Below are positions 14,215 through 49,714 of a DNA stretch of 64,000 nucleotides, in pieces. The notes under the pieces are model-generated. The model made no database searches and had not been told where the DNA came from. It saw only the letters and a list, made by a program, of their open reading frames with translations. This DNA comes from Escherichia coli (lineage in GTDB: Bacteria; Pseudomonadota; Gammaproteobacteria; Enterobacterales; Enterobacteriaceae), in the NCBI RefSeq assembly GCF_024700885.2, contig NZ_CP117016.1. One strand, given 5' to 3'. Both the position numbers and the translations under genes were made by a program. Every line of letters begins with the position of its first letter. The stretch's first letter is position 1.

Positions 14215-14243
14215 TTGATGATGTGATCCTAATCTCTTCAGGT

Positions 14244-14255
14244 ACGCTACCGCCC
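14244..14255 (-). promoter_or_regulatory. ops-like element (RfaH recruitment site, JUMPstart) in the region 3 leader about 30 nt upstream of the kpsM start
   Basis: Minus strand reads GGCGGTAGCGTA, matching the ops core GGCGGTAG at the position expected ahead of kpsM. Confidence 0.65.
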
Positions 14256-14349
14256 TTGGCTTAACAGCTACCAATACACTGGAGGTAATGCTTATTTGTA
14301 ACTGGATAAAATTTACTCAGACGGTTTGACCTTTTTAATAGCCGCAAAA

Positions 14350-14616
14350 AATTTCAGCAGAAATTATTTCCGCAGGGATAAATAGATCTATTTCCGTCTC
14401 GTTTCTTCTAATCCATTCTTCAGGCATGAATGTATTCGGTCTTCTGGTAATTTCAGAAAACTGGCCGTTTTAGAATGTAAAGTTAATTTCTCAGGAAATT
14501 ATTTCTACCTCTTTTTGCTTAACCAATATGGCTTGAAAAAGACGTAAAGCAGCATGCGTTCTGGATTACTCCGGAACACACTTATTCAAAATGGGCTGCT
14601 AATTTCGCAAGAAATT
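14350..14616. repeat. Three copies of a palindrome AATTTC-N4-GAAATT, each followed by ATTT(C/T), in the kps region 3 upstream/leader region; degenerate half-copies continue to about 15070
   Basis: Read directly: aatttcagcagaaatt (about 14350), aatttctcaggaaatt (about 14485), aatttcgcaagaaatt (about 14601); half-sites near 14449, 15000 and 15058. Confidence 0.7.
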
Positions 14617-15386
14617 ATTTTTTACTATTACTGTTAACTACTTGATTATAATACCACCTATGAATTTTATGCGTAACAATACCTGCAATCTGTTTCAAAC
14701 CAGAACACACGCGATTGATTACCAATAAATTGTTCACCGAGAAACTATTTCCCTATTTAAAATTCACTCGTGTACTTCTTATTTATATCTACAGCCCCCT
14801 CTTTACAGCCATATTTGTGATTTATATCACATTTAAATGGTGTTATTTAAGTTGCATCAATAATCCCGAAGGTAATTATTTTCGTCGATTAAAATATACA
14901 TCTTGATTATTTTGTGTATTTATTTTAACCAGTGTTACAACCAACACCATCCCTCAGTAGATATACCTGAGCAGACATTTCTTAAAATTGACGAATAGTT
15001 TCCCTGGAAATTATTATGCTTATTTGAAATTCCCTTTCTGATTATCTCCAGTAATTTTACTAATTTCCAGGCTACACAAAATACAGATCACATAAGAATT
15101 ATCCTATATGTTTTGACCTATCAATTGTTACTCAATGATTTATTACAACTATTAATAATCATAATGTGTCAAAACACTTAAGCATCTTTACAGTCTTAGA
15201 AAGGTGTCGATTAACGAAGGCTACATGGTGAAAAACAGGTTCCTTCAGTGTTACCGAATATTCCGTGGTGGGCTGGAGGGAGATAATTCTTGCTACATCG
15301 AAACTCAGCCCGGTGAGCGGGTTTGACAGTTCCGCACTCACCATTGGGCTAAGGGTTATCAGGTGGGGTTAAGGAAATGGCAATAC

Positions 15387-15923
15387 CTACCCCCGTCCAA
15401 ACTCCAGCCGCTGCACATTCACCATCCCAGGCTTCTCAGCAGCACTGACATCAATTTGTGTCACCCGCAGCGCATATTTTTCATCCAGCGCGTTTAACCA
15501 GTTCAGCAGATCATTAAATACCACAGGATCTATCCAGACCTGGATATTCTCCCCGCGCTCGGCTATTCGCTTAATGACCACTGAATGCGCCGAAGCACTG
15601 TCGCTGATGACCCGCGATACCTGTGCTGGCGTTGTCGTGCCGGATTTTCGCGCCGCAATAATATCCGGCGCGGCGCTCTTCAGTCGCGCGTTCATCGCCA
15701 CCAGCTGCTGCAACATCGTCTCCTGTTGCTCAATCCGTTCGCTCAACGGCTGCCAGATGAGAACGTAATATCCGGCGCTAAACAGGAACACTACCGCTGC
15801 CAGTAACATGCCTTTTTCACGCGGAGAACGCCCCGCCAGGTGTTGTGTCAGCCAGTGTTCGCCACGGCTTAACTGGCGTTCACGCCATTGCTGAAAATAG
15901 TGAATAAATTTATCGCGTAACAT
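15387..15923 (-). CDS. gspM: Type II secretion system protein M
   Basis: 178 aa, single N-terminal TM segment; last gene of the gsp operon; I recall the matching 178-aa YghD in K-12. Confidence 0.8.
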   Translation of the reverse strand: MLRDKFIHYFQQWRERQLSRGEHWLTQHLAGRSPREKGMLLAAVVFLFSAGYYVLIWQPLSERIEQQETMLQQLVAMNARLKSAAPDIIAARKSGTTTPAQVSRVISDSASAHSVVIKRIAERGENIQVWIDPVVFNDLLNWLNALDEKYALRVTQIDVSAAEKPGMVNVQRLEFGRG

Positions 15924-15924
15924 G

Positions 15925-17103
15925 TTATTTCCTCCGCAACGTTACGCCGCCGGAAACCGCATCACCCTCTTTCTGTAACGCGTCCTGTTGCACAACATAA
16001 TCTGCCGCCAGTGCGCTACGCAGTTTGTCGAAGCTGGCAAAGTTCGCAGCCCGTAGCTGAAGGTGAAGCGTCTGGCGTTTTTGATCAAAGGTGAAACCAC
16101 GCATTTCGATGTCGGAAAGTGACGCTGATTTCAGGGTACTGGCGATCGCTGACAATTCTGCGAGCAGCCGGGTATCGTCGGCCTGTGGGCGATATTTTTT
16201 CAGCGCCATCGTCACCTGAGAGCGTAAATTCACAATCCGCTTCTGCTCCGGGAATAGCGTTAAGAACTGTTTCTCCGCCTGGGTGCGGCTTTGCGCCACC
16301 TGTTCGCTGACGCTCCATAACGTCACGCCCCGTTCCACTACCAGCGCAACCAGAATCAGCAATATCGGCAGAATCATCACCCGCCAGCGCGCCCACTGTT
16401 TTCGGTAGCTGACACGAGGCTGCCACGGCCCTGTTAGCAGGTTCCCTTCCGGTTCGCCATAAGTGATAATGGCTGGCAGAGCCGTAACGGTCAGGCGTTC
16501 GGCGTCCGCACCAGCCCATGCAGACAGTTCTTCCGGTGCAATGCCGACCACGGTTAGTGAAAGCGGTATATCCTGCTCATTGAGCTGTGCGCGGAACATG
16601 ACCGGAGCCAGCGCCCGCCCGGCGCTCCATCCCCGGCATTCATCGATGCGGCAGATAACCCGTTGCGCATCGCCAGCCATAAACCCACAAGGAATAGACA
16701 TCCAGTCCGGCGCGACGGTAGCGCGGGTGATGCCGTTTGCCTGCAACCACTGCGCAATGTTGCGCATATGCTGCTGGTGAATCACAGCTACGGTTGCCAG
16801 TTGCTGGTCGATTTTCAACGGGGCGAAATGCAGTTCATCGATATCCTGGTTCAGCTCTTCTTCCAGCAAGGCGGGCAGAATCGTCGGTATCTGCTTGCGG
16901 GGCACATCAGGCAGTTCAACCTGCCAGACGCTGATCCATTCGCCGGGAATGTAGAGTCGAATCGCATCAGTTTGCAGCCATTGCTGGAGACATTCATCAG
17001 CAACGTCAGGCCAGATGCCGCACTCCACGTCGGCGGTACGACGCTGCCAACGGATGGGAGCGGAAGCGCAAAGCGGGAAAAAAATCTCAAGCATGGAACT
17101 CAC
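15925..17103 (-). CDS. gspL: Type II secretion system protein L
   Basis: 392 aa, bitopic with central TM; position between gspK and gspM. Confidence 0.8.
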   Translation of the reverse strand: MSSMLEIFFPLCASAPIRWQRRTADVECGIWPDVADECLQQWLQTDAIRLYIPGEWISVWQVELPDVPRKQIPTILPALLEEELNQDIDELHFAPLKIDQQLATVAVIHQQHMRNIAQWLQANGITRATVAPDWMSIPCGFMAGDAQRVICRIDECRGWSAGRALAPVMFRAQLNEQDIPLSLTVVGIAPEELSAWAGADAERLTVTALPAIITYGEPEGNLLTGPWQPRVSYRKQWARWRVMILPILLILVALVVERGVTLWSVSEQVAQSRTQAEKQFLTLFPEQKRIVNLRSQVTMALKKYRPQADDTRLLAELSAIASTLKSASLSDIEMRGFTFDQKRQTLHLQLRAANFASFDKLRSALAADYVVQQDALQKEGDAVSGGVTLRRK

Positions 17104-37883: not shown

Positions 37884-38159
37884 ATCTCTGTGGATAACAA
37901 ATAATTAACGGTGACAAACAGATTGCAACAGCAACGAACGGCACCTTAATAATCAACCCAATGAATACAAACGACGAATAAATAGTATTTATTAATGATT
38001 ACGATAAGGTTAGAGACTACACAGAAGCGCCACAATGCCTTTTGTCGATTTAAGGCGACCGGACAAGGCTTCTTCTTAATATATTCACAAATTAAATATC
38101 ATTCACAATAAAAACAAAAAAACTCAAACTCATTATTTAAATCAATGTTCATTTTCACA

Positions 38160-38227
38160 CTGATGAAAATACTATCTCATTTATCTTTTATGCCTATATA
38201 ATCCACCGCATTATTGTCATTTTATTT
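38160..38227 (+). promoter_or_regulatory. Candidate promoter for the lipid-biosynthesis operon in the AT-rich yghO-divergent intergenic region
   Basis: TATAAT hexamer at about 38197-38202, some 25-55 nt upstream of the candidate start codons; AT-rich upstream tract. Confidence 0.3.
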
Positions 38228-39979
38228 TTGATATCCAATTTTTTCGTGGTGTATATGTCTAATAAAATCTTTACGCATTCCCTACCTATGCGCTATGCCG
38301 ATTTTCCAACGCTGGTTGATGCTTTGGACTACGCCGCTCTGAGTAGCGCCGGAATGAATTTTTATGACAGACGTTGCCAACTTGAAGATCAACTGGAATA
38401 TCAGACGTTAAAAGCGCGTGCCGAAGCTGGTGCGAAGCGGTTGTTATCGCTGAACCTGAAAAAAGGCGATCGCGTGGCGCTGATTGCCGAAACCAGTAGC
38501 GGGTTCGTAGAGGCTTTTTTTTCCTGCCAGTATGCCGGCTTAGTCGCCGTCCCGTTGGCGATTCCAATGGGCGTCGGTCAGCGGGATTCCTGGAGCGCCA
38601 AACTGCAGGGTTTACTGGCAAGTTGCCAGCCCGCAGCCATTATCACTGGTGATGAGTGGTTACCGCTGGTCAATGCCGCGACGCATAACAACAACCCCGA
38701 ATTACATGTTTTAAGCCACGCCTGGTTTAAGACATTACCGGAAGCCGATGTTGCGCTCCAGCGTCCAGTTCCGAACGATATCGCCTACCTCCAGTACACT
38801 TCCGGCAGCACCCGTTTTCCCCGTGGCGTCATTATCACCCATCGCGAAGTGATGGCTAATCTACGTGCTATAAGCCACGATGGCATTAAATTACGCCCTG
38901 GCGACCGCTGCGTCTCCTGGCTGCCTTTCTACCATGATATGGGACTGGTCGGCTTTCTCCTGACCCCCGTCGCCACGCAGCTTTCAGTAGATTATTTGCG
39001 CACTCAGGATTTTGCCATGCGTCCTCTGCAATGGCTTAAATTGATCAGTAAAAATCGCGGCACCGTTTCCGTTGCGCCGCCGTTTGGCTATGAATTGTGC
39101 CAGCGCCGCGTGAATGAAAAAGATCTCGCTGAACTGGATCTTTCCTGCTGGCGCGTCGCTGGTATTGGTGCAGAACCCATCTCCGCAGAACAACTCCATC
39201 AATTCGCTGAATGTTTCCGTCAGGTCAACTTTGACGATAAAACTTTCATGCCGTGCTACGGACTGGCAGAAAATGCGCTGGCTGTCAGCTTCTCTGATGA
39301 AGCTTCCGGGGTTGTGGTTAACGAAGTGGATCGCGACATCCTCGAATATCAGGGCAAAGCCGTCGCGCCGGATGCTGAAACACGCGCCGTATCGACTTTC
39401 GTCAACTGCGGTAAAGCGTTGCCGGAACATGGCATTGAAATCCGCAATGAAGCAGGTATGCCGGTCGCGGAACGTGTGGTAGGCCATATTTGCATCTCCG
39501 GCCCCAGCCTGATGAGCGGTTACTTTGGCGACCAGATTTCACAAGACGAGATTGCCGCGACGGGCTGGTTAGACACCGGCGACCTCGGTTATCTGCTGGA
39601 CGGTTATCTGTATGTCACCGGACGCATTAAAGATCTGATTATTATTCGTGGCCGTAATATCTGGCCGCAGGATATTGAATATATTGCGGAACAGGAACCG
39701 GAAATTCATTCTGGCGATGCGATTGCTTTTGTTACCGCCCAGGAAAAAATCATTTTGCAGATCCAGTGTCGGATCAGCGATGAAGAACGTCGCGGGCAGC
39801 TTATCCACGCGCTGGCAGCACGGATCCAAAGCGAATTTGGCGTGACCGCGGCTATCGATCTGTTGCCGCCCCACAGTATTCCCCGAACGTCCTCCGGCAA
39901 GCCTGCCCGTGCGGAAGCGAAAAAACGTTATCAGAAGGCTTATGCTGCAAGCCTTCATGTGCAGGAATCCCTGGCATGA
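38228..39979 (+). CDS. Fatty acyl-AMP ligase / acyl-ACP synthetase (adenylate-forming enzyme)
   Basis: About 575-583 aa; AMP-binding signature LQYTSGSTRFPRGV; C-terminal lysine region; the true start may be the ATG at 38255. Confidence 0.8.
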   Translation: MISNFFVVYMSNKIFTHSLPMRYADFPTLVDALDYAALSSAGMNFYDRRCQLEDQLEYQTLKARAEAGAKRLLSLNLKKGDRVALIAETSSGFVEAFFSCQYAGLVAVPLAIPMGVGQRDSWSAKLQGLLASCQPAAIITGDEWLPLVNAATHNNNPELHVLSHAWFKTLPEADVALQRPVPNDIAYLQYTSGSTRFPRGVIITHREVMANLRAISHDGIKLRPGDRCVSWLPFYHDMGLVGFLLTPVATQLSVDYLRTQDFAMRPLQWLKLISKNRGTVSVAPPFGYELCQRRVNEKDLAELDLSCWRVAGIGAEPISAEQLHQFAECFRQVNFDDKTFMPCYGLAENALAVSFSDEASGVVVNEVDRDILEYQGKAVAPDAETRAVSTFVNCGKALPEHGIEIRNEAGMPVAERVVGHICISGPSLMSGYFGDQISQDEIAATGWLDTGDLGYLLDGYLYVTGRIKDLIIIRGRNIWPQDIEYIAEQEPEIHSGDAIAFVTAQEKIILQIQCRISDEERRGQLIHALAARIQSEFGVTAAIDLLPPHSIPRTSSGKPARAEAKKRYQKAYAASLHVQESLA

Positions 39980-40890
39980 ATCAAACTGTCGCGGTGACGG
40001 GCGCTACCGGGTTTATCGGTAAATATATTATCGATAACCTGCTCGCCCGCGGCTTTCACGTTCGCGCATTGACGCGTACTGCCCGCGCTCACGTCAATGA
40101 CAATCTCATCTGGGTGCGCGGTTCTCTGGAAGATACTCATTCACTTAGCGAACTGGTTGCCGGAGCCAGCGCGGTGGTCCATTGCGCCGGACAAGTGCGC
40201 GGGCACAAAGAAGAGATTTTTACCCGCTGTAACGTTGACGGCAGCCTGCGACTGATGCAAGCGGCAAAAGAGAGCGGCTTTTGCCAACGTTTTCTGTTTA
40301 TCTCTTCGCTGGCGGCGCGCCATCCCGAACTCTCCTGGTACGCAAATTCCAAACACGTCGCCGAACAACGGCTGACCGCAATGGCTGACGAAATTACGCT
40401 GGGCATTTTTCGCCCGACAGCCGTGTATGGTCCCGGCGATAAAGAGTTAAAACCGCTGTTTGACTGGATGCTGCGCGGCCTACTGCCACGACTTGGTGCG
40501 CCAGATACACAGCTCTCTTTCCTGCACGTCACCGATTTCGCGCAAGCCGTGGGGCAGTGGTTAAGCGCCGAAACTGTACAGACGCAAACCTATGAATTAT
40601 GCGATGGCGTCGCCGGCGGCTATGACTGGCAACGCGTAAGACAGCTTGCCGCCGACGCCCGTTGCGGTTCCGTTCGAATGGTTGGTATTCCTCTGTCGGT
40701 ACTCACCTGCCTTGCGGATATCAGTACTGCGTTGAGTCGCCTGGCAGGTAAAGAACCTATGCTGACCCGCTCGAAAATTCGTGAATTAACCCACGCCGAC
40801 TGGTCGGCAAATAATAACCGTATTTCTGAAGATATTAATTGGTTTCCCGGGATTAGCCTGGAACACGCATTACGCAACGGGCTATTTTGA
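39976..40890 (+). CDS. NAD(P)-dependent epimerase/dehydratase-family reductase (extended SDR), candidate 3-keto reductase
   Basis: 304 aa; Rossmann motif VTGATGFIGKYI; YxxxK catalytic motif (YANSK); start overlaps upstream stop (ATGA). Confidence 0.75.
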   Translation: MNQTVAVTGATGFIGKYIIDNLLARGFHVRALTRTARAHVNDNLIWVRGSLEDTHSLSELVAGASAVVHCAGQVRGHKEEIFTRCNVDGSLRLMQAAKESGFCQRFLFISSLAARHPELSWYANSKHVAEQRLTAMADEITLGIFRPTAVYGPGDKELKPLFDWMLRGLLPRLGAPDTQLSFLHVTDFAQAVGQWLSAETVQTQTYELCDGVAGGYDWQRVRQLAADARCGSVRMVGIPLSVLTCLADISTALSRLAGKEPMLTRSKIRELTHADWSANNNRISEDINWFPGISLEHALRNGLF

Positions 40891-40921
40891 TTGTCTTGTT
40901 TAAAGGTGTGTTAACGTTTCT

Positions 40922-41170
40922 ATGGTAAATCGTGAAATAGTAATGGATTACATCCTTTCCTGTTTACAGGATTTGGTCGAAAACGGTGTGGAAATTAAGC
41001 CCGACAGCGATCTCGTCAACGATCTTGGCCTGGAGTCGATCAAAGTGATGGATCTCTTAATGATGCTGGAAGACAGATTCGATATTTCCATTCCTATTAA
41101 TATTCTGCTGGATGTCAAAACCCCTGCGCAATTAATGGAAACACTACTTCCATGGCTGGAGAATAAATAA
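40922..41170 (+). CDS. Dedicated acyl carrier protein
   Basis: 82 aa acidic protein with the phosphopantetheine attachment motif DLGLESIKVMDL. Confidence 0.75.
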   Translation: MVNREIVMDYILSCLQDLVENGVEIKPDSDLVNDLGLESIKVMDLLMMLEDRFDISIPINILLDVKTPAQLMETLLPWLENK

Positions 41171-42342
41171 TGGGGCTATACGATAAATATGCGCGCCTTG
41201 CTGGCGAGCGACTGCAATTTAGTGACAACGGGTTAACACCGTTTGGCACCTGTATTGATGAAGTGTATTCCGCCACCGAAGGTCGGATTGGCAATAAAAA
41301 AGTGATTCTGGCCGGGACCAATAATTATCTCGGTTTAACCTTTAATCATGATGCCATCGCCGAAGGTCAGGCAGCGTTAGCGGCCCAAGGCACCGGCACC
41401 ACCGGTTCTCGTATGGCAAACGGCAGTTATGCGCCGCATCTGGCGTTAGAGAAAGAGATCGCCGAGTTTTTTAATCGCCCTACCGCTATCGTTTTTTCAA
41501 CCGGTTATACCGCTAATTTAGGCGTCATCAGCGCACTTGCCGACCATAACGCCGTGGTGTTACTGGATGCCGACAGCCACGCCAGTATTTATGACGCCTG
41601 TTCTCTCGGTGGCGCGGAAATTATTCGTTTCCGCCATAACGATGCTAAAGATCTGGAACGGCGCATGGTTCGCCTCGGTGAACGGGCAAAAGAGGCGATT
41701 ATCATCGTTGAAGGCATCTACAGTATGCTCGGTGACGTTGCGCCGCTGGCGGAAATTGTTGATATCAAACGTCGTCTCGGTGGTTATTTGATTGTCGATG
41801 AAGCGCATTCGTTTGGCGTGTTAGGCGCAACGGGGCGCGGACTGGCTGAAGCCGTTGGCGTTGAAGATGATGTGGATATTATCGTTGGTACCTTCAGTAA
41901 AAGTCTGGCCTCGATTGGCGGTTTTGCTGTCGGTTCGGAAGCGATGGAAGTGTTGCGCTACGGCAGCCGCCCGTATATTTTTACCGCCTCTCCTTCTCCG
42001 TCCTGCATTGCGACCGTGCGCTCGTCGTTAAGAACCATTGCCTCACAACCAGAGTTGCGGCAAAAGCTGATGGATAATGCCAACCATCTGTATGACGGTC
42101 TGCAAAAACTGGATTATGAGTTAAGTTCACATATTAGCCCGGTAGTGCCAGTAATAATCGGTTCGAAAGAGGAAGGTTTACGCATCTGGCGCGAGCTTAT
42201 TTCGCTGGGCGTTTATGTGAATCTTATCCTGCCACCTGCCGCGCCTGCAGGCATCACGCTGCTGCGCTGTAGCGTAAACGCTGCCCACAGTCGTGAGCAA
42301 ATTGATGCCATCATTCAAGCGTTCGCTACTCTGAAGCAGTAA
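41170..42342 (+). CDS. PLP-dependent alpha-oxoamine synthase (serine palmitoyltransferase / 8-amino-7-oxononanoate synthase family)
   Basis: 390 aa; PLP-lysine motif GTFSKSLASIGGF and DEAHSFG motif typical of the AOS family; start overlaps the ACP stop. Confidence 0.8.
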   Translation: MGLYDKYARLAGERLQFSDNGLTPFGTCIDEVYSATEGRIGNKKVILAGTNNYLGLTFNHDAIAEGQAALAAQGTGTTGSRMANGSYAPHLALEKEIAEFFNRPTAIVFSTGYTANLGVISALADHNAVVLLDADSHASIYDACSLGGAEIIRFRHNDAKDLERRMVRLGERAKEAIIIVEGIYSMLGDVAPLAEIVDIKRRLGGYLIVDEAHSFGVLGATGRGLAEAVGVEDDVDIIVGTFSKSLASIGGFAVGSEAMEVLRYGSRPYIFTASPSPSCIATVRSSLRTIASQPELRQKLMDNANHLYDGLQKLDYELSSHISPVVPVIIGSKEEGLRIWRELISLGVYVNLILPPAAPAGITLLRCSVNAAHSREQIDAIIQAFATLKQ

Positions 42343-42348
42343 TGTGAG

Positions 42349-42378
42349 CCCGCTGTGGTGTTGCGCCACGGCGGGTTT
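42349..42378 (+). terminator. Rho-independent terminator at the end of the + strand biosynthetic operon, overlapping the 3' end of the convergent permease gene
   Basis: GC-rich inverted repeat cccgctgtgg-N7-ccacggcggg followed by TTT. Confidence 0.55.
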
Positions 42379-43456
42379 AATGTTGTCTGTCATACCAATA
42401 CACCAGGCTCAACGCCACCAGCACAAACGCTACCGGTAAACCGAGCGCGGTAACAGGTGCGCTCAACGCAAATAGCAATCCCAGATTGACCATGATTTGA
42501 TAGCTGATCCAGGTAAGTAAGCCCACGATGACGCCTACAGCGAGACGGCTACCCATCCCAGGCGAACGCGGGGCACTAAAGGTAAACGGCACAGCCAGCA
42601 AAATCATCGCCAGGGTCAGGATGGGTTGTCCCAGTTTTTCCCACAGTGCAAGGCGGTATTCGCTGCTGGGTTGCCCAGTTTCCTGCAAATAATGGATGTA
42701 ATGATTAAGTTGACGGACAGAAAAAGTATTTCCCGGCATCGATAACTCTTCAAGATTCATACTGGTGAAGGCCGATTGCCAGGCAAGATTATCTGATGTT
42801 TCCAGCGTTTCTTTGCCATTCAACCATTTTTTATGATTCACACCATGCAGGATCCATGTTTTGTCGTCTTCAATGGAGGCACTGCGTGCAAAAATGTAGG
42901 ATTCGAGCGAGAGATCGTCGCGATAATGAAATATCTCCACGCCCACAGGCTGGCCCTGCTCGTTCAGCGATTTCACCGTCACAAATTCATTACCGCGCCT
43001 GGCCCAAAGCATATTGCCGGTAATGTCATCGTCCTCCCCCAACGCGGTGGCAGTCGATTTGATTTGCAGCGCCTGTTGCTGCAATGGCGACGCCACCCAC
43101 TCATCTATCGCGCCTAACGAAACAGTCCACAATATCCCGGCAACCAGCGCCACCAGTGCAATACGGAAGATAGAAAACCCAGTGCTGCGAATGGCGGTAA
43201 GCTCACTGTTTTTCGATAACTGCCCCAGGCCAACAATCCCTCCCAATAATGCGATAAACGGCGAAAGTTCGACCAGTGTACGCGGTAAGGTCATCAGCAC
43301 CACCAGCACCGCCTGAGTCCAGCGATAACCGCCCGGGCTGACATCATCCAGTTCGTTAATCAGGTTGAAGGTGGTAAAAAGCGGCAGCAATAGCCCTGCG
43401 GCGGCGGCAAAACCGAGAAAGAGATGACGGATTAAATAGCGACTGAAAACATTCAT
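42377..43456 (-). CDS. LptG-like permease (YjgP/YjgQ family) paralogue
   Basis: About 359 aa from MNVFSRYLIRHLF; six-TM permease architecture with a periplasmic domain, as in LptF/LptG; start overlaps the upstream gene stop (ATGA). Confidence 0.7.
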   Translation of the reverse strand: MNVFSRYLIRHLFLGFAAAAGLLLPLFTTFNLINELDDVSPGGYRWTQAVLVVLMTLPRTLVELSPFIALLGGIVGLGQLSKNSELTAIRSTGFSIFRIALVALVAGILWTVSLGAIDEWVASPLQQQALQIKSTATALGEDDDITGNMLWARRGNEFVTVKSLNEQGQPVGVEIFHYRDDLSLESYIFARSASIEDDKTWILHGVNHKKWLNGKETLETSDNLAWQSAFTSMNLEELSMPGNTFSVRQLNHYIHYLQETGQPSSEYRLALWEKLGQPILTLAMILLAVPFTFSAPRSPGMGSRLAVGVIVGLLTWISYQIMVNLGLLFALSAPVTALGLPVAFVLVALSLVYWYDRQH

Positions 43457-44523
43457 CGGGAAAATTTCTGCAGCAAAGAGAAGTCGCGTGCGACCAGCAT
43501 CAGCAGGCCCATTAGCATGAGTCCGGGTACTAACCACAAACCAGGAATGAGGGGAATCGCGCCGTTAGCCACCAGCGTACGGCAGACGTCGCCGCCATAA
43601 AAAATGGCAATAAACAGCAACGTCAGTGGCAATAATGTTGAAAATCGCCCTTGCCGCGGTTTTACCCGACTTAATGAAATGGCCAGCAGCGCCATCAACA
43701 ATGCTGTCAGGCCACGGCTTTGTCGCCATTGCAGTTCGGCATGATCGGCTGGAAAGACGGAGCGCGCCAGCTCCGTGACCGATTTCGCTTTGCGTTTGAC
43801 GTTAGGGCTTTGATCCAGCGGATTCAGATGTAATTGCAGATTACGGTAGATCTGTTCGTTGTCGTCACGCCCCTGATGATCGAGAAGATAGGCAGTGCCG
43901 TTGTGCAACATAACAGTCGGTTTCTCAGGTGATGGGTCAACCACATCAACCGAACGGGCGCGGAAAATGCGGGTTCGATTGGCAGTAGAAGTATAAATCA
44001 GCGCGTCAGTCAGGCGATTATTATCCTGATCAACCGTCTGCGAAAGGATCATTCGTCCGTTATCGTTAGTGTTAAATTTCTTTGCCCGCAACTGGCGAAC
44101 ATCCAGCTCCGACTGTGACTGTTGCTCCAGTTGATAAATCTGCGCATAAGCCCACGGACGACCATACATCGACAGAAGGGTGACAAAAATACTTAGCGGT
44201 ATCGCCAGATAAAGAACGGCTTTGTACAAGCGTCCCGGACTGCCCCCCGCCGCGGAGATAGCGGTAATTTCCGAGTCGGTATACATTTGCCCTAGCGTCA
44301 CGCCAACTGAAGCATATAGTCCAACAGGTAACAGCATCTCCAGTGCAATCAGCACTTTGTAGAAAACGATATCCAGCACAACATCAAGAGCTAATGTCCC
44401 ATTTGCCGCTTCGGTCAGATAACGCTGTGCGGAGTAGCTGGCGAAAATAAAGATCAGAAACCCGACGATAATCAGCACCAGACGGCGCGTACCACGCATG
44501 ATGTAGTGTTCAACCAGCTTCAT
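43453..44523 (-). CDS. LptF-like permease (YjgP/YjgQ family) paralogue
   Basis: 356 aa; N-terminus MKLVEHYIMRGTRRLVLIIVGFLIF resembles LptF/LptG N-termini; paired with the downstream LptG-like gene. Confidence 0.7.
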   Translation of the reverse strand: MKLVEHYIMRGTRRLVLIIVGFLIFIFASYSAQRYLTEAANGTLALDVVLDIVFYKVLIALEMLLPVGLYASVGVTLGQMYTDSEITAISAAGGSPGRLYKAVLYLAIPLSIFVTLLSMYGRPWAYAQIYQLEQQSQSELDVRQLRAKKFNTNDNGRMILSQTVDQDNNRLTDALIYTSTANRTRIFRARSVDVVDPSPEKPTVMLHNGTAYLLDHQGRDDNEQIYRNLQLHLNPLDQSPNVKRKAKSVTELARSVFPADHAELQWRQSRGLTALLMALLAISLSRVKPRQGRFSTLLPLTLLFIAIFYGGDVCRTLVANGAIPLIPGLWLVPGLMLMGLLMLVARDFSLLQKFSR

Positions 44524-44553
44524 CTCGCTAACGCCCTAAATCCTTTGAATTTT

Positions 44554-45117
44554 TTATTCATTGATCAGTTTCTGCGCCAGCGCAATGACATGATCTACCT
44601 CTTCCGGCGTCAGGCTGCCGTCCTTTGCCCACTGAATTTGCCCGTCTTTATTCAGCACCAGAATGGTTGAACTCTGCTCCGGCAACCGCCAGGCAACGCG
44701 TCCCAGTCCATTGCCGTCAATAACGAATTGCGCCCACGGATAGCGGCGTTTATTTTTTTCGATTTTGCCAACGACAAAATAGCCAGTACCAAAGATGGCA
44801 TCATCGGTGTTCACAATGGTGGTGGGCTGAAAACGATCCTGCGGAAAGTTTGCCGCTTCAACCGCTTTAATTAACAGTGAGTTCTTTTTCTTCGCCGACT
44901 TACGCCCGGCGATATACTGAATAATGCGGACTTTTCCCGCCAGCTGTGTGCTGTTCCACTTTTGGTAGTGAATTTCGTCGTCGCTATTCAGAAGCAACTC
45001 ACCGCCTTCCTGGATATAAACAGGGGTAACCGTTTTGCCAGTGACGAAATTGTGTGCCTGCACACCCGGGGCTAAGAGCATGATAATCAGCGCAATAATC
45101 AAACGAGATGACATCAT
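44554..45117 (-). CDS. Periplasmic protein with signal peptide (possibly YtfJ-like family)
   Basis: 187 aa; cleavable signal MMSSRLIIALIIMLLAPGVQA; family assignment tentative. Confidence 0.5.
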   Translation of the reverse strand: MMSSRLIIALIIMLLAPGVQAHNFVTGKTVTPVYIQEGGELLLNSDDEIHYQKWNSTQLAGKVRIIQYIAGRKSAKKKNSLLIKAVEAANFPQDRFQPTTIVNTDDAIFGTGYFVVGKIEKNKRRYPWAQFVIDGNGLGRVAWRLPEQSSTILVLNKDGQIQWAKDGSLTPEEVDHVIALAQKLINE

Positions 45118-45125
45118 TGCTCCGG

Positions 45126-45950
45126 TTATAGCGGAAAACGCGAAATCAGCAGCTCTAAGCGCTGGCGAATATCGCTATCCAGCGCCACCGGTGCATCATA
45201 CGACTGGCGGTTTTCCATATCATCCGCCACCATGTCGTCGTGTTTATCCCCCATCAGGCCATTAATGGCGGCGAGGAAGCGGGAAATCTGTAACGCTTCT
45301 TTATTTTCAGGATCAAGCGATCTTAAGGTGTCGTAATAAGAAACCTGCTGGCTGATGATTTTTCGCACATCATGAAATTCCCTGCCGGTTAGTCGCGGTT
45401 TGGCAATTATCTCTTTCAGGGTATGCATTTGCTTTTGCCGATAGGCAATAAAACCGCTTACGCTTTCTAACTGGCTATGGCGTAATGAATAGTTCACCAA
45501 CGACCAGACCGGAGAGCTTAAATAAACCCGTAACAGGTTGCCGTAATACGACACAATATTTTTCTTACCGTTACGAAAGCCGTCCTGAAAACGCCCCAAA
45601 AAAACGGTCGTTTTGCCGAATAAAAATCCGGCCTGATGCTTCTTTAAATACAGCCGTTGCGCAAAGCGCAGATGCTTGTAGCGCGCTCGCATGTATTTAT
45701 ACTTTTTGCGCTCGTCTGTCGTCAGTTCATCGCCTTTCGCCTGTTTGCGGATTAAACGCAGTAGCTCCTGACGATTAACACCATCCAGCCAGAATTTCAG
45801 GCATAACGCGTAATTATCATGGATGATTTCGGTGGTACAACTTAGTGCGATAGTCGGCGGCAAACTGACCTGTGCATCAACGACATCATCTTCTTCAATC
45901 GCAACAAATAGACGCTCGCTAGCCTCAAGCGGGAAATATTTTCTCATCAT
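45126..45950 (-). CDS. Hypothetical cytoplasmic protein, basic and Lys/Arg-rich
   Basis: 274-aa ORF tightly packed between the flippase gene and the periplasmic protein gene; no motif recognised by eye. Confidence 0.5.
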   Translation of the reverse strand: MMRKYFPLEASERLFVAIEEDDVVDAQVSLPPTIALSCTTEIIHDNYALCLKFWLDGVNRQELLRLIRKQAKGDELTTDERKKYKYMRARYKHLRFAQRLYLKKHQAGFLFGKTTVFLGRFQDGFRNGKKNIVSYYGNLLRVYLSSPVWSLVNYSLRHSQLESVSGFIAYRQKQMHTLKEIIAKPRLTGREFHDVRKIISQQVSYYDTLRSLDPENKEALQISRFLAAINGLMGDKHDDMVADDMENRQSYDAPVALDSDIRQRLELLISRFPL

Positions 45951-47299
45951 CAGGATTTCTCTCCGGCTGCGTTATAAAGCAAGGAATGGCGCTGAAAAAA
46001 TGCCTTTAAGGTTGGAATTAGCGAGAGCACCACATCCAGACATTGCCCAGCGAAGTAAGCAAATGCAGCCCCCAGCACGCCAAACAGATGACAGAACATG
46101 AACAGCAATACGATGTAGCCGATTGAGGCGATGGTTTGCGCCACGAGAAAAGCACGCTGTTTTCCCGCCATCAATAGCAATGACTCCTGTGGGAAGCCCA
46201 GCATTGAAATCACAATTGCGCCTAGCATCACCTGAATCAGGTCATACGCTTCGAGATACTTAACGCCAAACACCAGCGAAATGAGTGGCTTGCCGACGAT
46301 CAACACCACGAGCGCCACCAGAATACCGATTCCGCCCGCCAGTAAACCGGACTTCACGCCTAACAACCACGGCCTGGTGGTGCGCGGATCTAAACGCATC
46401 ACCTCTGGGTAAAAACTTTTACCCAGCAAACCCGCTGGCGTTCCGGCGGCGTCGAAGAATGTCATGGCGATTTTAAATAACCCGGCGGCAGCGGGTCCTA
46501 ACACGATCCCCACCAACACTGTGCTGCACGAGTTACGCGCCGACCAGATGGAGTGGGCAATGTTGGTTGACCAGACAAAACTCCACGCGCCTTTAATGTG
46601 TCGGGCAGACTCAAACAGATTCAATTTGAAGGCGTTATGGATATTTCTGCGGCGTAATTCGCGCGCGGCAAACCACCAGTACATGGTGCCGCCAACCAGA
46701 TTCGATGCGTACCAGGCAATAACAAAACCCGCAAAACCAAAATCAAAATACCAGGCTACGACGCTCCCCGCTGCGCGCAGAAAAGGTTTCGTCGCCTGCT
46801 GTACAGCAATCAAATCGAAGCGATCTACCGCACGCAGAATGCCGGTCGGCGTGGAGGAAGCCATTGAAGGAATGAGCGTGCAATACAGCGCTGCCAGCCA
46901 AAAGCTTTGGTCATCCAGACCTAATGAATGGGAAAGAAAAGGGAGTAAGGCAATGCCGCCGACAATCGCCACCGCGCCGCTGACGATATCCAGCGAGAAG
47001 GAAAATGAGACGACATTGCGGAATTGCTGCGGATTATTGTTGGTTAATGCTGGTGTTCCGTACTGCACCACCAACTGCCATGTCTGAAACTTAATAAAAT
47101 CGCTGATCGACTTGGCGTACGATTGCACAATCACCAGTACGCCAAACATGGCGGGCGTCATCCCTTTACCGGCACACGAGAGCGCCAACAGACCTAGCAA
47201 GGCGCTCACGACATTACTGGAGCCTAACCAGGCGCTATTGCGAATAATGGTGCGAAACGCGCCATCTGCAAACCAATGTTTGATGTTAAAACCCGCCAA
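45950..47299 (-). CDS. yghQ: MOP-superfamily (Wzx-like) polytopic flippase/exporter
   Basis: 449-aa ORF, highly hydrophobic with many predicted TM helices; I recall the K-12 counterpart as yghQ; start codon uncertain. Confidence 0.65.
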   Translation of the reverse strand: MAGFNIKHWFADGAFRTIIRNSAWLGSSNVVSALLGLLALSCAGKGMTPAMFGVLVIVQSYAKSISDFIKFQTWQLVVQYGTPALTNNNPQQFRNVVSFSFSLDIVSGAVAIVGGIALLPFLSHSLGLDDQSFWLAALYCTLIPSMASSTPTGILRAVDRFDLIAVQQATKPFLRAAGSVVAWYFDFGFAGFVIAWYASNLVGGTMYWWFAARELRRRNIHNAFKLNLFESARHIKGAWSFVWSTNIAHSIWSARNSCSTVLVGIVLGPAAAGLFKIAMTFFDAAGTPAGLLGKSFYPEVMRLDPRTTRPWLLGVKSGLLAGGIGILVALVVLIVGKPLISLVFGVKYLEAYDLIQVMLGAIVISMLGFPQESLLLMAGKQRAFLVAQTIASIGYIVLLFMFCHLFGVLGAAFAYFAGQCLDVVLSLIPTLKAFFQRHSLLYNAAGEKS

Positions 47300-47344
47300 T
47301 TCAGCCTGACCTTATCGTTGATAGTAAAAAGTATCCCGCCAGCC

Positions 47345-48103
47345 TTAAGTTAAACTTCGGCGGTCAGAAACGATGGCAACCAGAGAAACCGCCTTCTGTG
47401 CCTGTTCCAGCACTTCGCTGTAGGGCGCTCTGGAATCAATCTCAAGAATTTTTGTGCCGTTATAGCCAATCGTCGACATGACGCCGATTTTGTCCTGCAG
47501 CTCGGCATAGTCATGGTCAGGCTTGCGGGAGATGGCAGTATCAATATCAATCCCCAAACGAATGATTAATTCAGGACGGTATTGCGCCATTTTTTGGTAT
47601 AAACGCCGTTCGCGCTGCGCCAGAAACATGCTGATTTTCCCGGTCGCACGTTCGACGCCGATCCCCGGTCCGTCATAATAAAAGCCCGAAATTTCAGCCT
47701 GCGGGAAGCGATCGCTGACCACCAGAACGCCACTTTGCGCCAGTCGCTGAACCTTGCGTAGATTCGCCATTCTTCGCAGCGAGAAGCAGTACATAATCAC
47801 CGCCGCCCATAGCGCTGGAGATTTGGTTTTCATGCTTTGGGTTTTCGAGGATTTGGCCGCCAGTCGCCGTTCGAGCCAGACGCCAACCAACGGCAATCGT
47901 TTGATTGTGTCGCCGTCTTCGCCCGAGAGCAGCCCCAGATAGCGCCGCTCGGTTTGCCAGTGTTGTTGCAGCGATTTCACCAGGTCGGTGGTCAGTGTGG
48001 ATTTACCGGTGCCATCACACCCGACCACCGCAATCAGCCCCGGAATGTAGTTGGGCTGCGGCACGGTTGTACTATTAACAGTTTGTGTTTGTAGTGCATC
48101 CAT
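47345..48103 (-). CDS. yghR: P-loop NTPase, kinase-like (YghR/S/T family)
   Basis: 252 aa; N-proximal Walker A VVGCDGTGKST; DRF motif; no ABC signature motif seen. Confidence 0.7.
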   Translation of the reverse strand: MDALQTQTVNSTTVPQPNYIPGLIAVVGCDGTGKSTLTTDLVKSLQQHWQTERRYLGLLSGEDGDTIKRLPLVGVWLERRLAAKSSKTQSMKTKSPALWAAVIMYCFSLRRMANLRKVQRLAQSGVLVVSDRFPQAEISGFYYDGPGIGVERATGKISMFLAQRERRLYQKMAQYRPELIIRLGIDIDTAISRKPDHDYAELQDKIGVMSTIGYNGTKILEIDSRAPYSEVLEQAQKAVSLVAIVSDRRSLT

Positions 48104-48134
48104 TCGTTAAATCATCCCCTATCCATTTTGGTGA

Positions 48135-48848
48135 TCAGGAAAGCACGGCGTGAATTGCGCGTAGTGACGCTTGCATAATTTCATCGGCTGGTTGCCGACC
48201 ATCCAGTTCAAGGATCTTTGCGCCATTGAATGTCAGTTGCGGCGTAACGGCGATTTTTTCCTGTAACGCTGCCAGTTGGTGGTCAGGTTTACGCGAAAAC
48301 GCGGTTTGTTCATCAATGCCAAGACGAATCAACAATACGGGCAAATAAGACGCCATCCATTGGTACAGCTTCAGCTCGCGCTGCCTTAACATTTTTATCC
48401 AACCGTTACCGCCCGTGGTTTTTGCCAATTGCGGGCCATCAAAGCGAAAACCCGGCACTTCAACCTGCGGGTAGCGGTCGGTGATGAGCAGATAGCCTTG
48501 CTGGCTTTTACACAACATTTTGCGAAACTTATACGCCCGCCAGCAGGAAAGCAGATAGATAACCAGCGCAGTAATATTGCCAGGCGGTGTTGAGGGCTTT
48601 TCGTGCACATGTGCCGCTTTACTTCGCAGATAACGCCCAAAAGGTGCGCCAATAACAGGGAGCTGTGAAATCCATTCGCCAATTCGCCCGGACGATTGCC
48701 CGAGATAAATGTGTTCTGTTGGCATTCTTGCTGCCAGTTCATTTACCAGGCTTGCCGTGAGGGTCGATTTACCTGAACCATCACATCCTACAATGGCAAT
48801 AACACGCACTGGCGTGGAATTAATTATTGACATATTACGTTGATTCAC
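48135..48848 (-). CDS. yghS: P-loop NTPase, kinase-like (YghR/S/T family paralogue)
   Basis: 237 aa; Walker A IVGCDGSGKST; DRYP motif; same architecture as yghR. Confidence 0.7.
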   Translation of the reverse strand: MNQRNMSIINSTPVRVIAIVGCDGSGKSTLTASLVNELAARMPTEHIYLGQSSGRIGEWISQLPVIGAPFGRYLRSKAAHVHEKPSTPPGNITALVIYLLSCWRAYKFRKMLCKSQQGYLLITDRYPQVEVPGFRFDGPQLAKTTGGNGWIKMLRQRELKLYQWMASYLPVLLIRLGIDEQTAFSRKPDHQLAALQEKIAVTPQLTFNGAKILELDGRQPADEIMQASLRAIHAVLS

Positions 48849-49021
48849 GAAAAACCCGGCAGCAAATAATGTATTGAATATTACGTGGTCCGTGCTCAGA
48901 ATATCCGTTCAACCTTATTGTGACAATGGTTAATTGTGACATTGACCTGAATTACGCTTTCATAAAAACATATTAACCAAATAAATATTTTTAATGGATA
49001 TTCAAATTAAAGGATATATTC

Positions 49022-49714
49022 ATGCAGTCAATAACACCTCCATTAATTGCCGTTATTGGTAGCGATGGTTCAGGCAAGTCAACGGTGTGTGAACATCTCA
49101 TTACCGTTGTCGAAAAATATGGTGCTGCCGAAAGAGTTCATTTAGGAAAACAAGCCGGAAATGTCGGTCGTGCAGTGACAAAATTACCGTTGATGGGAAA
49201 ATCCTTACATAAAACAATTGAACGAAATCAGGTGAAAACAGCAAAAAAATTGCCTGGCCCTGTTCCGGCGCTGGTAATTACAGCGTTTGTCGCCCGTCGC
49301 TTACTGCGCTTTCGTCATATGCTTGCCTGTCGTCGTCGCGGGTTAATTGTTCTAACCGACCGTTATCCTCAGGACCAAATTCCTGGCGCTTACGATGGTA
49401 CAGTGTTCCCACCTAACGTTGAAGGCGGCCGGTTTGTCTCATGGCTGGCAAGCCAGGAACGTAAAGCATTTCACTGGATGGCGAGCCATAAGCCTGATCT
49501 GGTCATCAAACTCAATGTTGACCTTGAAGTTGCCTGCGCGCGTAAACCCGACCATAAACGGGAATCGCTGGCGAGGAAGATTGCAATAACGCCACAGTTA
49601 ACCTTTGGTGGTGCACAACTGGTTGATATCGATGCCAATCAGCCACTGGAAAAGGTGCTGGTTGATGCAGAAAAAGCGATTACGGATTTTATGACCGCGC
49701 GTGGTTATCACTAG
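49022..49714 (+). CDS. yghT: P-loop NTPase, kinase-like (YghR/S/T family paralogue)
   Basis: 230 aa; Walker [16 protein letters not shown] motif; divergent from yghS. Confidence 0.7.

What the first reader, a model, noticed from the sequence alone, without database searches (positions are those of the whole stretch)
44554..45950. Two uncharacterised proteins embedded in the lipid cluster
A signal-peptide-bearing periplasmic protein (187 aa) and a basic cytoplasmic protein (274 aa) sit between the permease pair and the flippase with minimal intergenic spacing, implying co-expression. They could be a periplasmic lipid-binding chaperone and a head-group-modifying enzyme, but I recognise no motif by eye.
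Basis: inference. Interest (0 to 1): 0.5.

Follow-up and report, generated by a model that had tools for sequence, protein, structure and literature searches.

The report
Two helper proteins of sphingolipid operon
Both genes are real and conserved: one encodes a cysteine-free periplasmic copy of the unknown-function protein YtfJ. The other encodes a cytoplasmic relative of polyphosphate-binding CHAD domains that travels with a lipid flippase and three kinase-like proteins in sphingolipid-making bacteria, which hints that E. coli makes and exports a heavily phosphorylated sphingolipid nobody has yet seen.

Summary
The window is E. coli chromosome. The two ORFs lie in the non-K-12 sphingolipid locus (yghO, aasR-cerR-acpR-spt, lptG2-lptF2, yghQ-yghR-yghS, yghT). 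Both ORFs are confirmed, tightly packed in one operon and under purifying selection.

The 187-aa protein is not unrecognisable. It is a YtfJ-family protein (TIGR01626, 215 bits against a cut-off of 151) and is 55% identical to K-12 YtfJ. It has a signal peptide and a DsbE/TlpA-type thioredoxin fold but no cysteine. An invariant basic loop sits where CxxC would be.

Across 78 genomes the 274-aa gene directly follows the MOP flippase gene yghQ (64 of 74 readable loci). It lies within 10 kb of dTMP-kinase-superfamily paralogues (69 of 78). This pairing of kinases with a CHAD protein is the one just described for the archaeal polyphosphate kinase PPK3 operon.

My inferred reading is that the two proteins help assemble and export a phosphate-rich ceramide head group: one binds (oligo)phosphate in the cytoplasm, the other is a periplasmic accessory found only in Enterobacterales.

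The parts
45126..45950 (-). 274-aa cytoplasmic CHAD-like protein (RefSeq WP_000984965.1 'hypothetical protein'; UniProt 'Ybl138'); one of the two proteins of the finding
44554..45117 (-). 187-aa periplasmic YtfJ-family paralogue ('YtfJ2'), a thioredoxin fold without cysteine; the other protein of the finding
45950..47299 (-). yghQ, MOP-family flippase; its stop overlaps the start of the CHAD-like gene
   Evidence: NCBIfam MOP flippase family, E 9.7e-9. Pfam Polysacc_synt in orthologues. Directly upstream of the CHAD-like gene in 64 of 74 readable loci. Junction read.
47345..48103 (-). yghR, a P-loop kinase of the dTMP-kinase superfamily (not a true dTMP kinase)
   Evidence: TIGR00041 31.5 bits against cut-off 83. 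Family profile A4 hits thymidylate kinases at E 1e-6. Walker A, DR(Y/F)PQ and RKPDH motifs are conserved.
48135..48848 (-). yghS, second dTMP-kinase-superfamily paralogue
49022..49714 (+). yghT, third dTMP-kinase-superfamily paralogue, divergently transcribed
   Evidence: Fused to a YghS-like domain in Bombella.
43453..44523 (-). lptF2, LptF-like permease of the sphingolipid locus
   Evidence: TIGR04407 317 bits. Homologous role shown in Caulobacter (bioRxiv 10.64898/2026.04.12.717747).
42377..43456 (-). lptG2, LptG-like permease (RefSeq start; the longest ORF runs to 43537)
   Evidence: TIGR04408 304 bits. RefSeq coordinates.
38255..42342 (+). aasR-cerR-acpR-spt, ceramide backbone genes (acyl-ACP synthetase, reductase, dedicated ACP, serine palmitoyltransferase)
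   Evidence: Annotation. Biochemistry of the E. coli BL21 orthologues ECD_02851-02854 in PMC9386255.
36741..37883 (-). yghO, homologue of the ceramide N-acyltransferase (aca/bCerS)
   Evidence: Listed as yghO ECD_02850 in PMC9386255.

Best explanation
Shown: the window carries the E. coli sphingolipid locus. The 274-aa protein is a cytoplasmic, divergent CHAD domain: two four-helix bundles that keep the basic H/K-x2-R-x3-K/R motif which binds polyphosphate in solved CHAD domains. The 187-aa protein is a secreted, cysteine-free thioredoxin-fold paralogue of YtfJ. Shown by comparative genomics: the CHAD-like gene forms a conserved module with the MOP flippase YghQ and two or three dTMP-kinase-superfamily kinases (YghR/S/T) in Enterobacterales, Xanthomonadales, Sphingomonadales and Acetobacteraceae. 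The YtfJ paralogue is an addition found only in Enterobacterales and always sits next to the CHAD-like gene. Inferred mechanism: YghO, AasR, CerR, AcpR and Spt make ceramide. The YghR/S/T kinases are the only head-group enzymes in the E. coli locus, and their superfamily forms phosphoanhydride bonds; they would build a phosphate-rich (mono- to oligophosphate) head group. The CHAD-like protein would bind that anionic head group on the cytoplasmic face, acting as a non-catalytic subunit or adaptor for the kinases and the flippase. YghQ would flip the lipid. The periplasmic YtfJ paralogue would bind or shield the anionic head group through the invariant basic loop (A70-G71-R72-x-S74-A75-K76) that replaces the CxxC site, between the flippase and LptB-LptF2G2. 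LptF2G2 would extract the lipid for delivery to the outer membrane.
Against: I found no report of an E. coli sphingolipid, phosphorylated or not. Sphingomonads are known for glycosphingolipids rather than phosphosphingolipids (own knowledge). Acetobacter loci add glycosyltransferases. The E. coli protein itself scores on no CHAD model, and profile-profile comparison with YgiF-type short CHAD domains finds nothing. The YghR/S/T profile is no closer to the solved PPK3-type kinase (2plr/5h70, E 0.018, P-loop only) than to ordinary thymidylate kinases (E 1e-6). No ppx, ppk or sixA gene lies nearby. The invariant acidic and His residues (D123, D238, H105, H237) are unexpected for a pure polyanion binder and could mark a metal or catalytic site. 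The YtfJ2 model is only moderately reliable (five models at 85.6, 80.1, 57.3, 56.7 and 45.3; the basic loop block has pLDDT 62). K-12 keeps the canonical YtfJ but lacks the sphingolipid genes, so the YtfJ fold is not intrinsically sphingolipid-specific.
Confidence: 0.45

Rival explanations
1. The 274-aa protein is a catalytic derivative of the CHAD fold, a metal-dependent phosphotransferase or phosphatase that modifies the head group. The symmetric (Q/H)-D pairs and His residues would form the active site.
Against: The (L/M)GxxxD motif is also present in the solved, non-catalytic RcCHAD (LGRHND aligned). No metal site is conserved in solved CHAD domains (PMC6537752). No hit to any enzyme family.
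Confidence: 0.2
2. YghR/S/T plus the CHAD-like protein form a soluble PPK3-like polyphosphate or nucleotide kinase system. Its linkage to the sphingolipid genes would be metabolic (phosphate or energy supply) or coincidental, and it would not touch the lipid.
For: The pairing of dTMP-kinase paralogues with a CHAD protein matches the PPK3 operon. In Sphingomonadales the module is not next to spt. pitB, a phosphate transporter gene, is adjacent in E. coli.
Against: A MOP lipid flippase gene is directly upstream of the CHAD-like gene in 64 of 74 readable loci across four orders, which a soluble polyP system would not need. In Enterobacterales and Xanthomonadales the module is embedded among spt genes. 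No ppx or sixA nearby. No specific similarity to PPK3. The named genera carrying the module are mostly ones I know as sphingolipid producers or that carry spt in the same locus (the producer status is my own knowledge).
Confidence: 0.12
3. The YtfJ paralogue has the same unknown general envelope function as canonical YtfJ and is merely a duplicated passenger. Alternatively it is a periplasmic lipid chaperone that binds the acyl chains rather than the head group.
For: 55% identity to K-12 YtfJ, which exists without any sphingolipid genes. It is absent from the module outside Enterobacterales. Periplasmic carriers for bacterial sphingolipids are still unidentified.
Against: It is retained next to the CHAD-like gene in 44 of 44 Enterobacterales loci through several rearrangements, with dN/dS 0.11-0.15, so it is not a casual passenger. 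Its fold is DsbE/TlpA-type thioredoxin, not a known lipid-carrier fold. The family-invariant residues at the former active site are basic or polar rather than hydrophobic.
Confidence: 0.2
4. The two ORFs are decaying or non-functional remnants.
For: K-12 lost them without obvious harm. No published phenotype was found.
Against: Strong purifying selection. Present in about 75% of complete E. coli genomes and across four bacterial orders. Very confident fold for the 274-aa protein.
Confidence: 0.03

Closest known systems
CHAD domains (PF05235): CtCHAD 3e0s/6qv7, RcCHAD 6qv5, Streptomyces PptA 6rn5, C-terminal domain of E. coli YgiF 5a61
   Different: The E. coli protein is below every Pfam threshold. 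Lys replaces the first-half His. About 75 extra N-terminal residues. No similarity to the short YgiF type. Partnered with a lipid flippase and sphingolipid genes instead of PPK1, PPK2, PPX or TTM enzymes. Ligand unknown.
PPK3 operon of Sulfolobus acidocaldarius (ppx, sixA, cPPK3 + rPPK3 dTMP-kinase paralogues, CHAD protein; PMC12995831)
   Same: Multiple dTMP-kinase-superfamily paralogues encoded together with a CHAD-type protein. A natural fusion of two paralogues (Bombella) suggests a heteromer, as in PPK3.
   Different: No ppx or sixA. YghR/S/T are not specifically related to the solved PPK3-type kinase. All three paralogues keep the Walker A, DR(Y/F) and RKPDH motifs. The module includes a MOP flippase and sits in a lipid locus.
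YtfJ/HI0045 family (TIGR01626, PF09695), including E. coli K-12 YtfJ (b4216)
   Same: A full-length match above the curated cut-off, 55% identity, same signal peptide and same conserved mature N-terminus H-(N/Q)-F.
   Different: A second copy that is locked into the sphingolipid operon in Enterobacterales. The function of the family itself is unknown, so membership explains little.
Periplasmic thiol:disulfide oxidoreductases and peroxiredoxins (DsbE/CcmG, TlpA, ResA, Bcp/AhpC)
   Different: No cysteine at all. The CxxC/Cp position carries the invariant A-G-R-x-S-A-K loop, so redox chemistry is excluded.
Caulobacter crescentus sphingolipid locus (Spt/AcpR/AasR/CerR/bCerS, CpgABC head-group enzymes, flippase CC_1166, LptF2/G2/C2)
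   Same: The same backbone genes, a MOP-type flippase, and LptF/G paralogues that export an anionic phosphosphingolipid using LptB.
   Different: The published gene-by-gene description of the Caulobacter locus lists no CHAD-like protein, no YghR/S/T-type kinase and no YtfJ; I did not search the Caulobacter sequence itself. Its ceramide kinase CpgB is DAG-kinase-like. LptC2 is restricted to Caulobacter. E. coli therefore has a different, uncharacterised head-group module.

Membership tests
CHAD domain (PF05235) | Two four-helix bundles related by pseudo-two-fold symmetry | tested here: met
CHAD domain (PF05235) | Conserved basic helix motif H-x2-R-x3-R that contacts polyphosphate (CtCHAD H253/R256/R260; SsCHAD H29/R32/R36) | tested here: met
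   A profile of divergent members aligns K85-R88-K92-R95 to RcCHAD H-QM-R-VGV-R-RL-R, and H193-R196 to the second-half H-RT-R. R88, H193 and R196 are invariant, and K92, R95 and K197 are >=90% conserved in 75 sequences. Lys replaces His in the first half.
CHAD domain (PF05235) | Significant match to the family's sequence model | tested here: not met
   The E. coli protein has no CHAD hit even at E<=10. Among 75 family members, 2 reach E<=0.001 and 20 reach E<=0.1. P0250 scores E 0.0027. hhalign against YgiF-type CHAD gives probability 0.06%. More distant orthologues are named 'CHAD domain-containing protein' in UniProt.
CHAD domain (PF05235) | Binds inorganic polyphosphate | not testable with these tools
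   Needs purified protein. Only the motif conservation above bears on it.
YtfJ/HI0045 family (TIGR01626, PF09695) | Full-length match above the curated cut-off | tested here: met
   215 bits against cut-off 151.1, residues 2-185 on profile 1-183/184. PF09695 E 1.9e-59. 55% identity to K-12 YtfJ.
Thiol:disulfide oxidoreductase / peroxiredoxin (thioredoxin-like) | Thioredoxin-like fold | tested here: met
Thiol:disulfide oxidoreductase / peroxiredoxin (thioredoxin-like) | Redox-active cysteine(s) (CxxC or peroxidatic Cys) at the N-terminus of helix 1 | tested here: not met
   The protein has no cysteine. The position carries the invariant A70-G71-R72, S74-A75-K76. It is therefore not a member functionally.
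PPK3-type polyphosphate kinase system | Two or more dTMP-kinase-superfamily paralogues encoded together with a CHAD protein | tested here: met
   YghR, YghS and YghT hit TIGR00041 at 25-31 bits, below the cut-off of 83. The family profile hits thymidylate kinases at E 1e-6. Kinases lie within 10 kb of the CHAD-like gene in 69 of 78 loci. Operon description in PMC12995831.
PPK3-type polyphosphate kinase system | Kinases belong to the PPK3 clade and sit with ppx/sixA/pst genes | tested here: not met
   The solved PPK3-type homologue 2plr/5h70 scores E 0.018 on the P-loop only, worse than ordinary thymidylate kinases. No ppx or sixA in the locus. No phylogeny was run, so clade membership stays open.
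Lpt-type periplasmic lipid carriers (LptA/LptC) | Beta-jellyroll fold with a hydrophobic groove | tested here: not met
   YtfJ2 is alpha/beta thioredoxin-like. No LptC/LptA family hit.
Bacterial sphingolipid locus (Spt/AcpR/AasR/CerR/bCerS + LptF2G2) | Both genes lie inside an operon of a locus with experimentally verified ceramide-backbone genes | tested here: met
   Gene order. The E. coli BL21 orthologues were characterised in PMC9386255. The same arrangement recurs in 39 of 44 Enterobacterales loci with spt within 10 kb.

The most novel reading that the evidence does not exclude
The conserved module of YghR/S/T kinases, CHAD-like protein and YghQ flippase makes a ceramide carrying a phosphoanhydride chain (a pyro-, tri- or longer polyphosphate). 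This would be a lipid-anchored polyphosphate. The CHAD-like protein would hold the growing chain. YghQ, whose family normally flips polyprenyl-pyrophosphate-linked cargo, would flip it, and LptB-LptF2G2 would export it to the cell surface. In Enterobacterales the YtfJ paralogue would be its periplasmic handler. This would be a new class of bacterial surface lipid, and a new use of both the CHAD domain and the PPK3-like kinase idea.
Probability: 0.15. Interest if true: 0.9.

Novelty: new variant of a known kind. Interest (0 to 1): 0.6.

Why it matters
About three quarters of complete E. coli genomes, though not K-12, carry a full sphingolipid locus. Its backbone enzymes work in vitro, but its final product, head group and transport route are unknown. 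The field has just shown that LptF2G2 export anionic sphingolipids in Caulobacter, and it states that the remaining components are missing. This analysis shows that the two unnamed genes are not random fillers. One ties the flippase to a CHAD-type phosphate-polymer binding module and to three dTMP-kinase-like kinases, in a module conserved from E. coli to Sphingomonas and Acetobacter. The other is a periplasmic component specific to Enterobacterales. That gives a concrete and cheap prediction to test: a 32P-labelled, spt-dependent, highly anionic ceramide. It also supplies candidate proteins for the missing steps. It further shows that RefSeq's 'dTMP kinase' names for YghS and YghT are over-annotations.

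Tried and rejected
- **Direct sequence searches of the 274-aa protein.** Searches against Pfam, NCBIfam and PDB sequences gave only chance hits. The 75-sequence profile against PDB also failed. Only a profile restricted to the most divergent members reached solved CHAD domains.
- **Profile-profile comparison with YgiF-type CHAD.** The alignment was built from the last protein search. It found nothing, so the link is to the long CHAD type only.
- **'TPR repeat protein' (SEED label) and 'GspM' (P0033 label).** Rejected: no TPR or GspM hit for the E. coli protein, and the fold is CHAD.
- **YghR/S/T as homologues of the Caulobacter ceramide kinase CpgB.** Rejected: CpgB is DAG-kinase-like with a GGDG motif.
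- **YghR/S/T single-sequence searches of the PDB.** Uninformative.
- **Genomic contexts of three distant metagenomic family members.** The contigs were too short to help.
- **Literature searches.** Searches for yghO/Q/R/S/T, Ybl138, locus tags, and CHAD with sphingolipid found no functional study of either gene. yghQ appears only as a K-12 chlorhexidine-adaptation marker and in a strain list.
- **Hydrophobic cavity in the YtfJ2 model and electrostatics of the CHAD-like model.** I could not compute either, because model coordinates are not exposed to the scripting tool.
Full report
**Where we are.** The window is Escherichia coli chromosome. Bases 42300-47400 are 100% identical to strain 1190 and several human isolates. 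The stretch is present at >=80% coverage in 4090 of 5426 complete E. coli genomes. The RefSeq annotation of the region reads as follows:
- glcC, then yghO on the minus strand.
- A fatty acyl-AMP ligase, an NAD-dependent epimerase-family protein, an ACP and spt on the plus strand.
- lptG-like, lptF-like, 'YtfJ family protein', 'hypothetical protein', 'lipopolysaccharide biosynthesis protein' (yghQ), yghR and yghS on the minus strand.
- yghT on the plus strand, then pitB and gss.

This is the E. coli sphingolipid locus. The BL21 orthologues ECD_02851-02854 were shown biochemically to be AasR, the reductase, AcpR and Spt, and yghO (ECD_02850) is the homologue of the ceramide N-acyltransferase (PMC9386255). 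K-12 lacks the two genes of the finding: an IS5-associated deletion removes everything from aasR to the 3' end of yghQ.

Both ORFs are at the stated coordinates. The yghQ stop overlaps the 274-aa start by one base (TGATG). Eight nt containing GGAG precede the 187-aa start. Thirty nt separate the 187-aa stop from the lptF-like start. No convincing terminator lies inside the run. The one strong hairpin sits between the convergent spt and lptG-like genes. The 187-aa protein has a Sec-type signal peptide and no cysteine. The 274-aa protein is basic (pI 9.4) and has no hydrophobic segment. dN/dS is 0.07-0.08 for the 274-aa gene and 0.11-0.15 for the 187-aa gene, comparable to the neighbouring yghQ and lptF2. 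Both are therefore functional genes.

**The 187-aa protein.**
- It is a clear YtfJ/HI0045 family member: TIGR01626 at 215 bits against a cut-off of 151, and PF09695 at E 2e-59. It is 55% identical to K-12 YtfJ, b4216. It is thus a second, locus-specific copy of a protein whose function is unknown.
- The family has no cysteine, so redox chemistry is excluded. At the position of the CxxC motif (the end of strand 63-70 and the start of helix 80-89), 22 sequences share the invariant A70-G71-R72 and K76 and the near-invariant S74, A75 and N79. This is a basic loop at a helix N-terminus, which I read as a possible anion site. That reading is inference.
- This is not a known lipid-carrier fold. I could not test for a hydrophobic cavity.

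**The 274-aa protein.**
- It matches no Pfam, NCBIfam or PDB sequence. It nevertheless belongs to a real family: 343 close relatives in Enterobacterales and 204 clusters at 50% identity in the large library.
- In 75 diverse members, R88, D123, H193 and R196 are invariant. K92, R95, H105, G119, K197, N230, M233, G234, H237, D238 and Y251 are >=90% conserved.
- The AlphaFold model is very confident (pLDDT 96.9, pTM 0.93) and all-helical.
- Sequence evidence agrees with the fold, weakly. Pfam CHAD hits 2 of 75 members at E<=0.001 and 20 at E<=0.1. More distant orthologues in Sphingomonas, Acetobacter, Zymomonas, Komagataeibacter and Pseudomonas veronii are called 'CHAD domain-containing protein' in UniProt. 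A profile of the most divergent members hits 6qv5 at E 0.0019 and 6qv7/3e0s at E 0.4.
- The alignment is informative. It places K85-R88-K92-R95 on the RcCHAD string H-x2-R-x3-R-x2-R. It places H193-R196...G234..D238 on the second-half H-x2-R...LGxxxD.
- The two halves of the family align to each other as FKxxR...MGxLQD against FHxxRK...MGxxHD. This is the pseudo-two-fold symmetry described for CHAD.
- In solved CHAD domains, H-x2-R-x3-R lines the central cavity and its mutation reduces polyphosphate binding. Those domains are non-catalytic polyP-binding modules (PMC6537752).
- Comparison with YgiF-type short CHAD domains found nothing.
- I conclude that this is a divergent subfamily of the long CHAD type, with the anion-binding signature retained. 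Its ligand is untested.

**What it travels with.** A scan of one genome per species returned 78 loci. I tabulated homologues of all thirteen locus genes by tblastn.
- The MOP flippase gene yghQ lies directly upstream of the CHAD-like gene in 64 of 74 loci where the upstream region is readable: Enterobacterales 41/41, Xanthomonadales 5/5, Sphingomonadales 16/18.
- YghR/S/T-type kinase genes lie within 10 kb in 69 of 78 loci.
- In Sphingopyxis the operon is ECF sigma, anti-sigma, yghS, yghR, yghT, yghQ and the CHAD-like gene, and nothing else related.
- In Acetobacter, glycosyltransferase genes join the module.
- spt and the LptF2G2 genes are in the same locus only in Enterobacterales, and spt also in Xanthomonadales.
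- The YtfJ paralogue is adjacent to the CHAD-like gene in 44 of 44 Enterobacterales loci and is absent from the other 34. It stays beside the CHAD-like gene even where lptG2-lptF2 have moved to the other side of yghQ (for example L015, L017, L025, L041).
- The named genera carrying the family are mostly ones I know as sphingolipid producers or that carry spt in the same locus.

**The kinases.**
- YghR, YghS and YghT are remote members of the dTMP-kinase superfamily. They score 25-31 bits on TIGR00041, whose cut-off is 83. Their family profile hits thymidylate kinases at E 1e-6.
- RefSeq's 'dTMP kinase' product names for YghS and YghT are therefore over-annotations.
- All three keep the Walker A motif, a DR(Y/F)PQ motif and a family-specific RKPDH motif.
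- In Bombella a YghT-like and a YghS-like domain are fused in one 480-aa protein, which suggests a heteromer.
- A distant CHAD-like family member (P0250) is fused to an APH/choline-kinase-type kinase domain and carries two CHAD-like copies. The association of this domain with kinases thus recurs with an unrelated kinase fold.

**A precedent.** A 2026 paper identified PPK3, the Sulfolobus polyphosphate kinase. It is a heteromer of two 'thymidylate kinase' paralogues encoded in an operon with ppx, sixA and a CHAD protein (PMC12995831). The E. coli module has the same pairing of dTMP-kinase paralogues with a CHAD-type protein. It differs in having no ppx or sixA and in having a lipid flippase. 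YghR/S/T show no specific similarity to the solved PPK3-type kinase 2plr/5h70 (E 0.018). The parallel is therefore one of architecture, not demonstrated orthology.

**Comparison with Caulobacter.** There the head group (ceramide diphosphoglycerate) is made by a DAG-kinase-like ceramide kinase CpgB, a Tam41-like enzyme, a CDP-alcohol transferase and nucleotidyltransferases. LptF2/LptG2 use LptB to export the anionic lipid. LptC2 is restricted to Caulobacter, and the periplasmic and outer-membrane steps are unknown. The published gene-by-gene description of that locus lists no CHAD-like protein, no YghR/S/T-type kinase and no YtfJ; I did not search the Caulobacter sequence itself. The E. coli locus has no glycosyltransferase, nucleotidyltransferase or CDP-alcohol transferase. 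Its only candidate head-group enzymes are the three kinases.

**Most likely mechanism (inferred).**
1. Ceramide is made by YghO, AasR, CerR, AcpR and Spt.
2. YghR/S/T phosphorylate it. Because their superfamily typically transfers phosphate onto a phosphate, they may extend the head group beyond a monophosphate.
3. The CHAD-like protein binds the anionic head group at the cytoplasmic face, serving the kinases and the flippase as a non-catalytic subunit.
4. YghQ flips the lipid.
5. In Enterobacterales the secreted YtfJ paralogue handles the head group in the periplasm.
6. LptB-LptF2G2 extract the lipid for delivery to the outer membrane.

I put about 0.9 on the two family and fold assignments. 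I put about 0.45 on the overall role in making and exporting a phosphorylated sphingolipid, and about 0.15 on a true lipid-linked oligo- or polyphosphate.

**Rivals.**
- A catalytic CHAD derivative: the conserved His/Asp residues are unexplained, although the (L/M)GxxxD motif is also present in non-catalytic CHAD.
- A soluble PPK3-like polyP system unrelated to the lipid. The near-universal flippase linkage argues against it.
- YtfJ2 acting as a general envelope protein or as an acyl-chain chaperone.

**Novelty.** The YtfJ assignment is already in RefSeq. The CHAD label exists in UniProt for distant orthologues but not for the E. coli protein. I found no paper that mentions CHAD together with sphingolipids, or that studies either gene. 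The new elements are a CHAD subfamily coupled to a lipid flippase, and a conserved kinase-CHAD-flippase module in sphingolipid-producing Proteobacteria. The mechanism remains a prediction.

Noticed in passing
window 47345-49714 (yghR, yghS, yghT): RefSeq names YghS and YghT 'dTMP kinase', yet they score only 25-31 bits on the dTMP-kinase models, whose cut-offs are 83-193 bits. They form their own family with a conserved RKPDH motif. The product names look like over-annotation.
   Followed up: partly
L087 (K-12 MG1655 3130146-3132408), equivalent to window ~37900-46240: In K-12 an IS5 element sits where aasR, cerR, acpR, spt, lptG2, lptF2, ytfJ2 and the CHAD-like gene lie in this window. yghQ is truncated there to 355 aa from 449 aa. 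This explains why the two genes never received K-12 names or Keio mutants.
   Followed up: partly
L085 (Bombella favorum), minus-strand ORF of 480 aa: A YghT-like and a YghS-like kinase domain are fused into one protein. This 'Rosetta stone' fusion suggests the paralogues work as a heteromer.
   Followed up: no
L046 and L051 (Luteibacter), L080 (gammaproteobacterial MAG); proteins P0123, P0250, P0257: The CHAD-like gene is tandemly duplicated in some Xanthomonadales. Two copies are fused in one chain in P0123. P0250 and P0257 carry an APH-type kinase domain plus two copies.
   Followed up: partly
proteins P0190, P0239, P0250 (metagenomic relatives of the 274-aa protein): Several distant members start with what looks like a signal peptide, for example MNRIYATIGIALLTLLSGLYAVAG in P0190. 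Part of the family may therefore be secreted, unlike the E. coli protein. Their source organisms are unknown.
   Followed up: no
window 45052-45060 (residues 21-24 of the 187-aa protein): The first residues of the predicted mature YtfJ-type protein, A|H-N-F, are nearly invariant. K-12 YtfJ has A|H-Q-F. A conserved N-terminal histidine on a secreted protein is unusual and unexplained.
   Followed up: no
window ~6000-16000: GC content drops to 31-42%. In strain 1190 this stretch carries capsule-type genes (ABC transporter permease and ATPase, galE, a beta-Kdo transferase, a glycosyltransferase, capsule biosynthesis proteins) next to the gsp type II secretion operon and yghD. It is probably a horizontally acquired group 2/3 capsule region.
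   Followed up: partly
window 42345-42379: A 16-bp-stem GC-rich hairpin lies between the convergent spt and lptG2 genes. It probably acts as a bidirectional terminator closing both operons.
   Followed up: no
L037 / L004 (record titled Martelella alba BGMRC 2031): A genome labelled as an alphaproteobacterium carries the complete Enterobacterales-type locus, including ytfJ2, at 60-78% identity to E. coli proteins. The assembly may be contaminated or misassigned.
   Followed up: no
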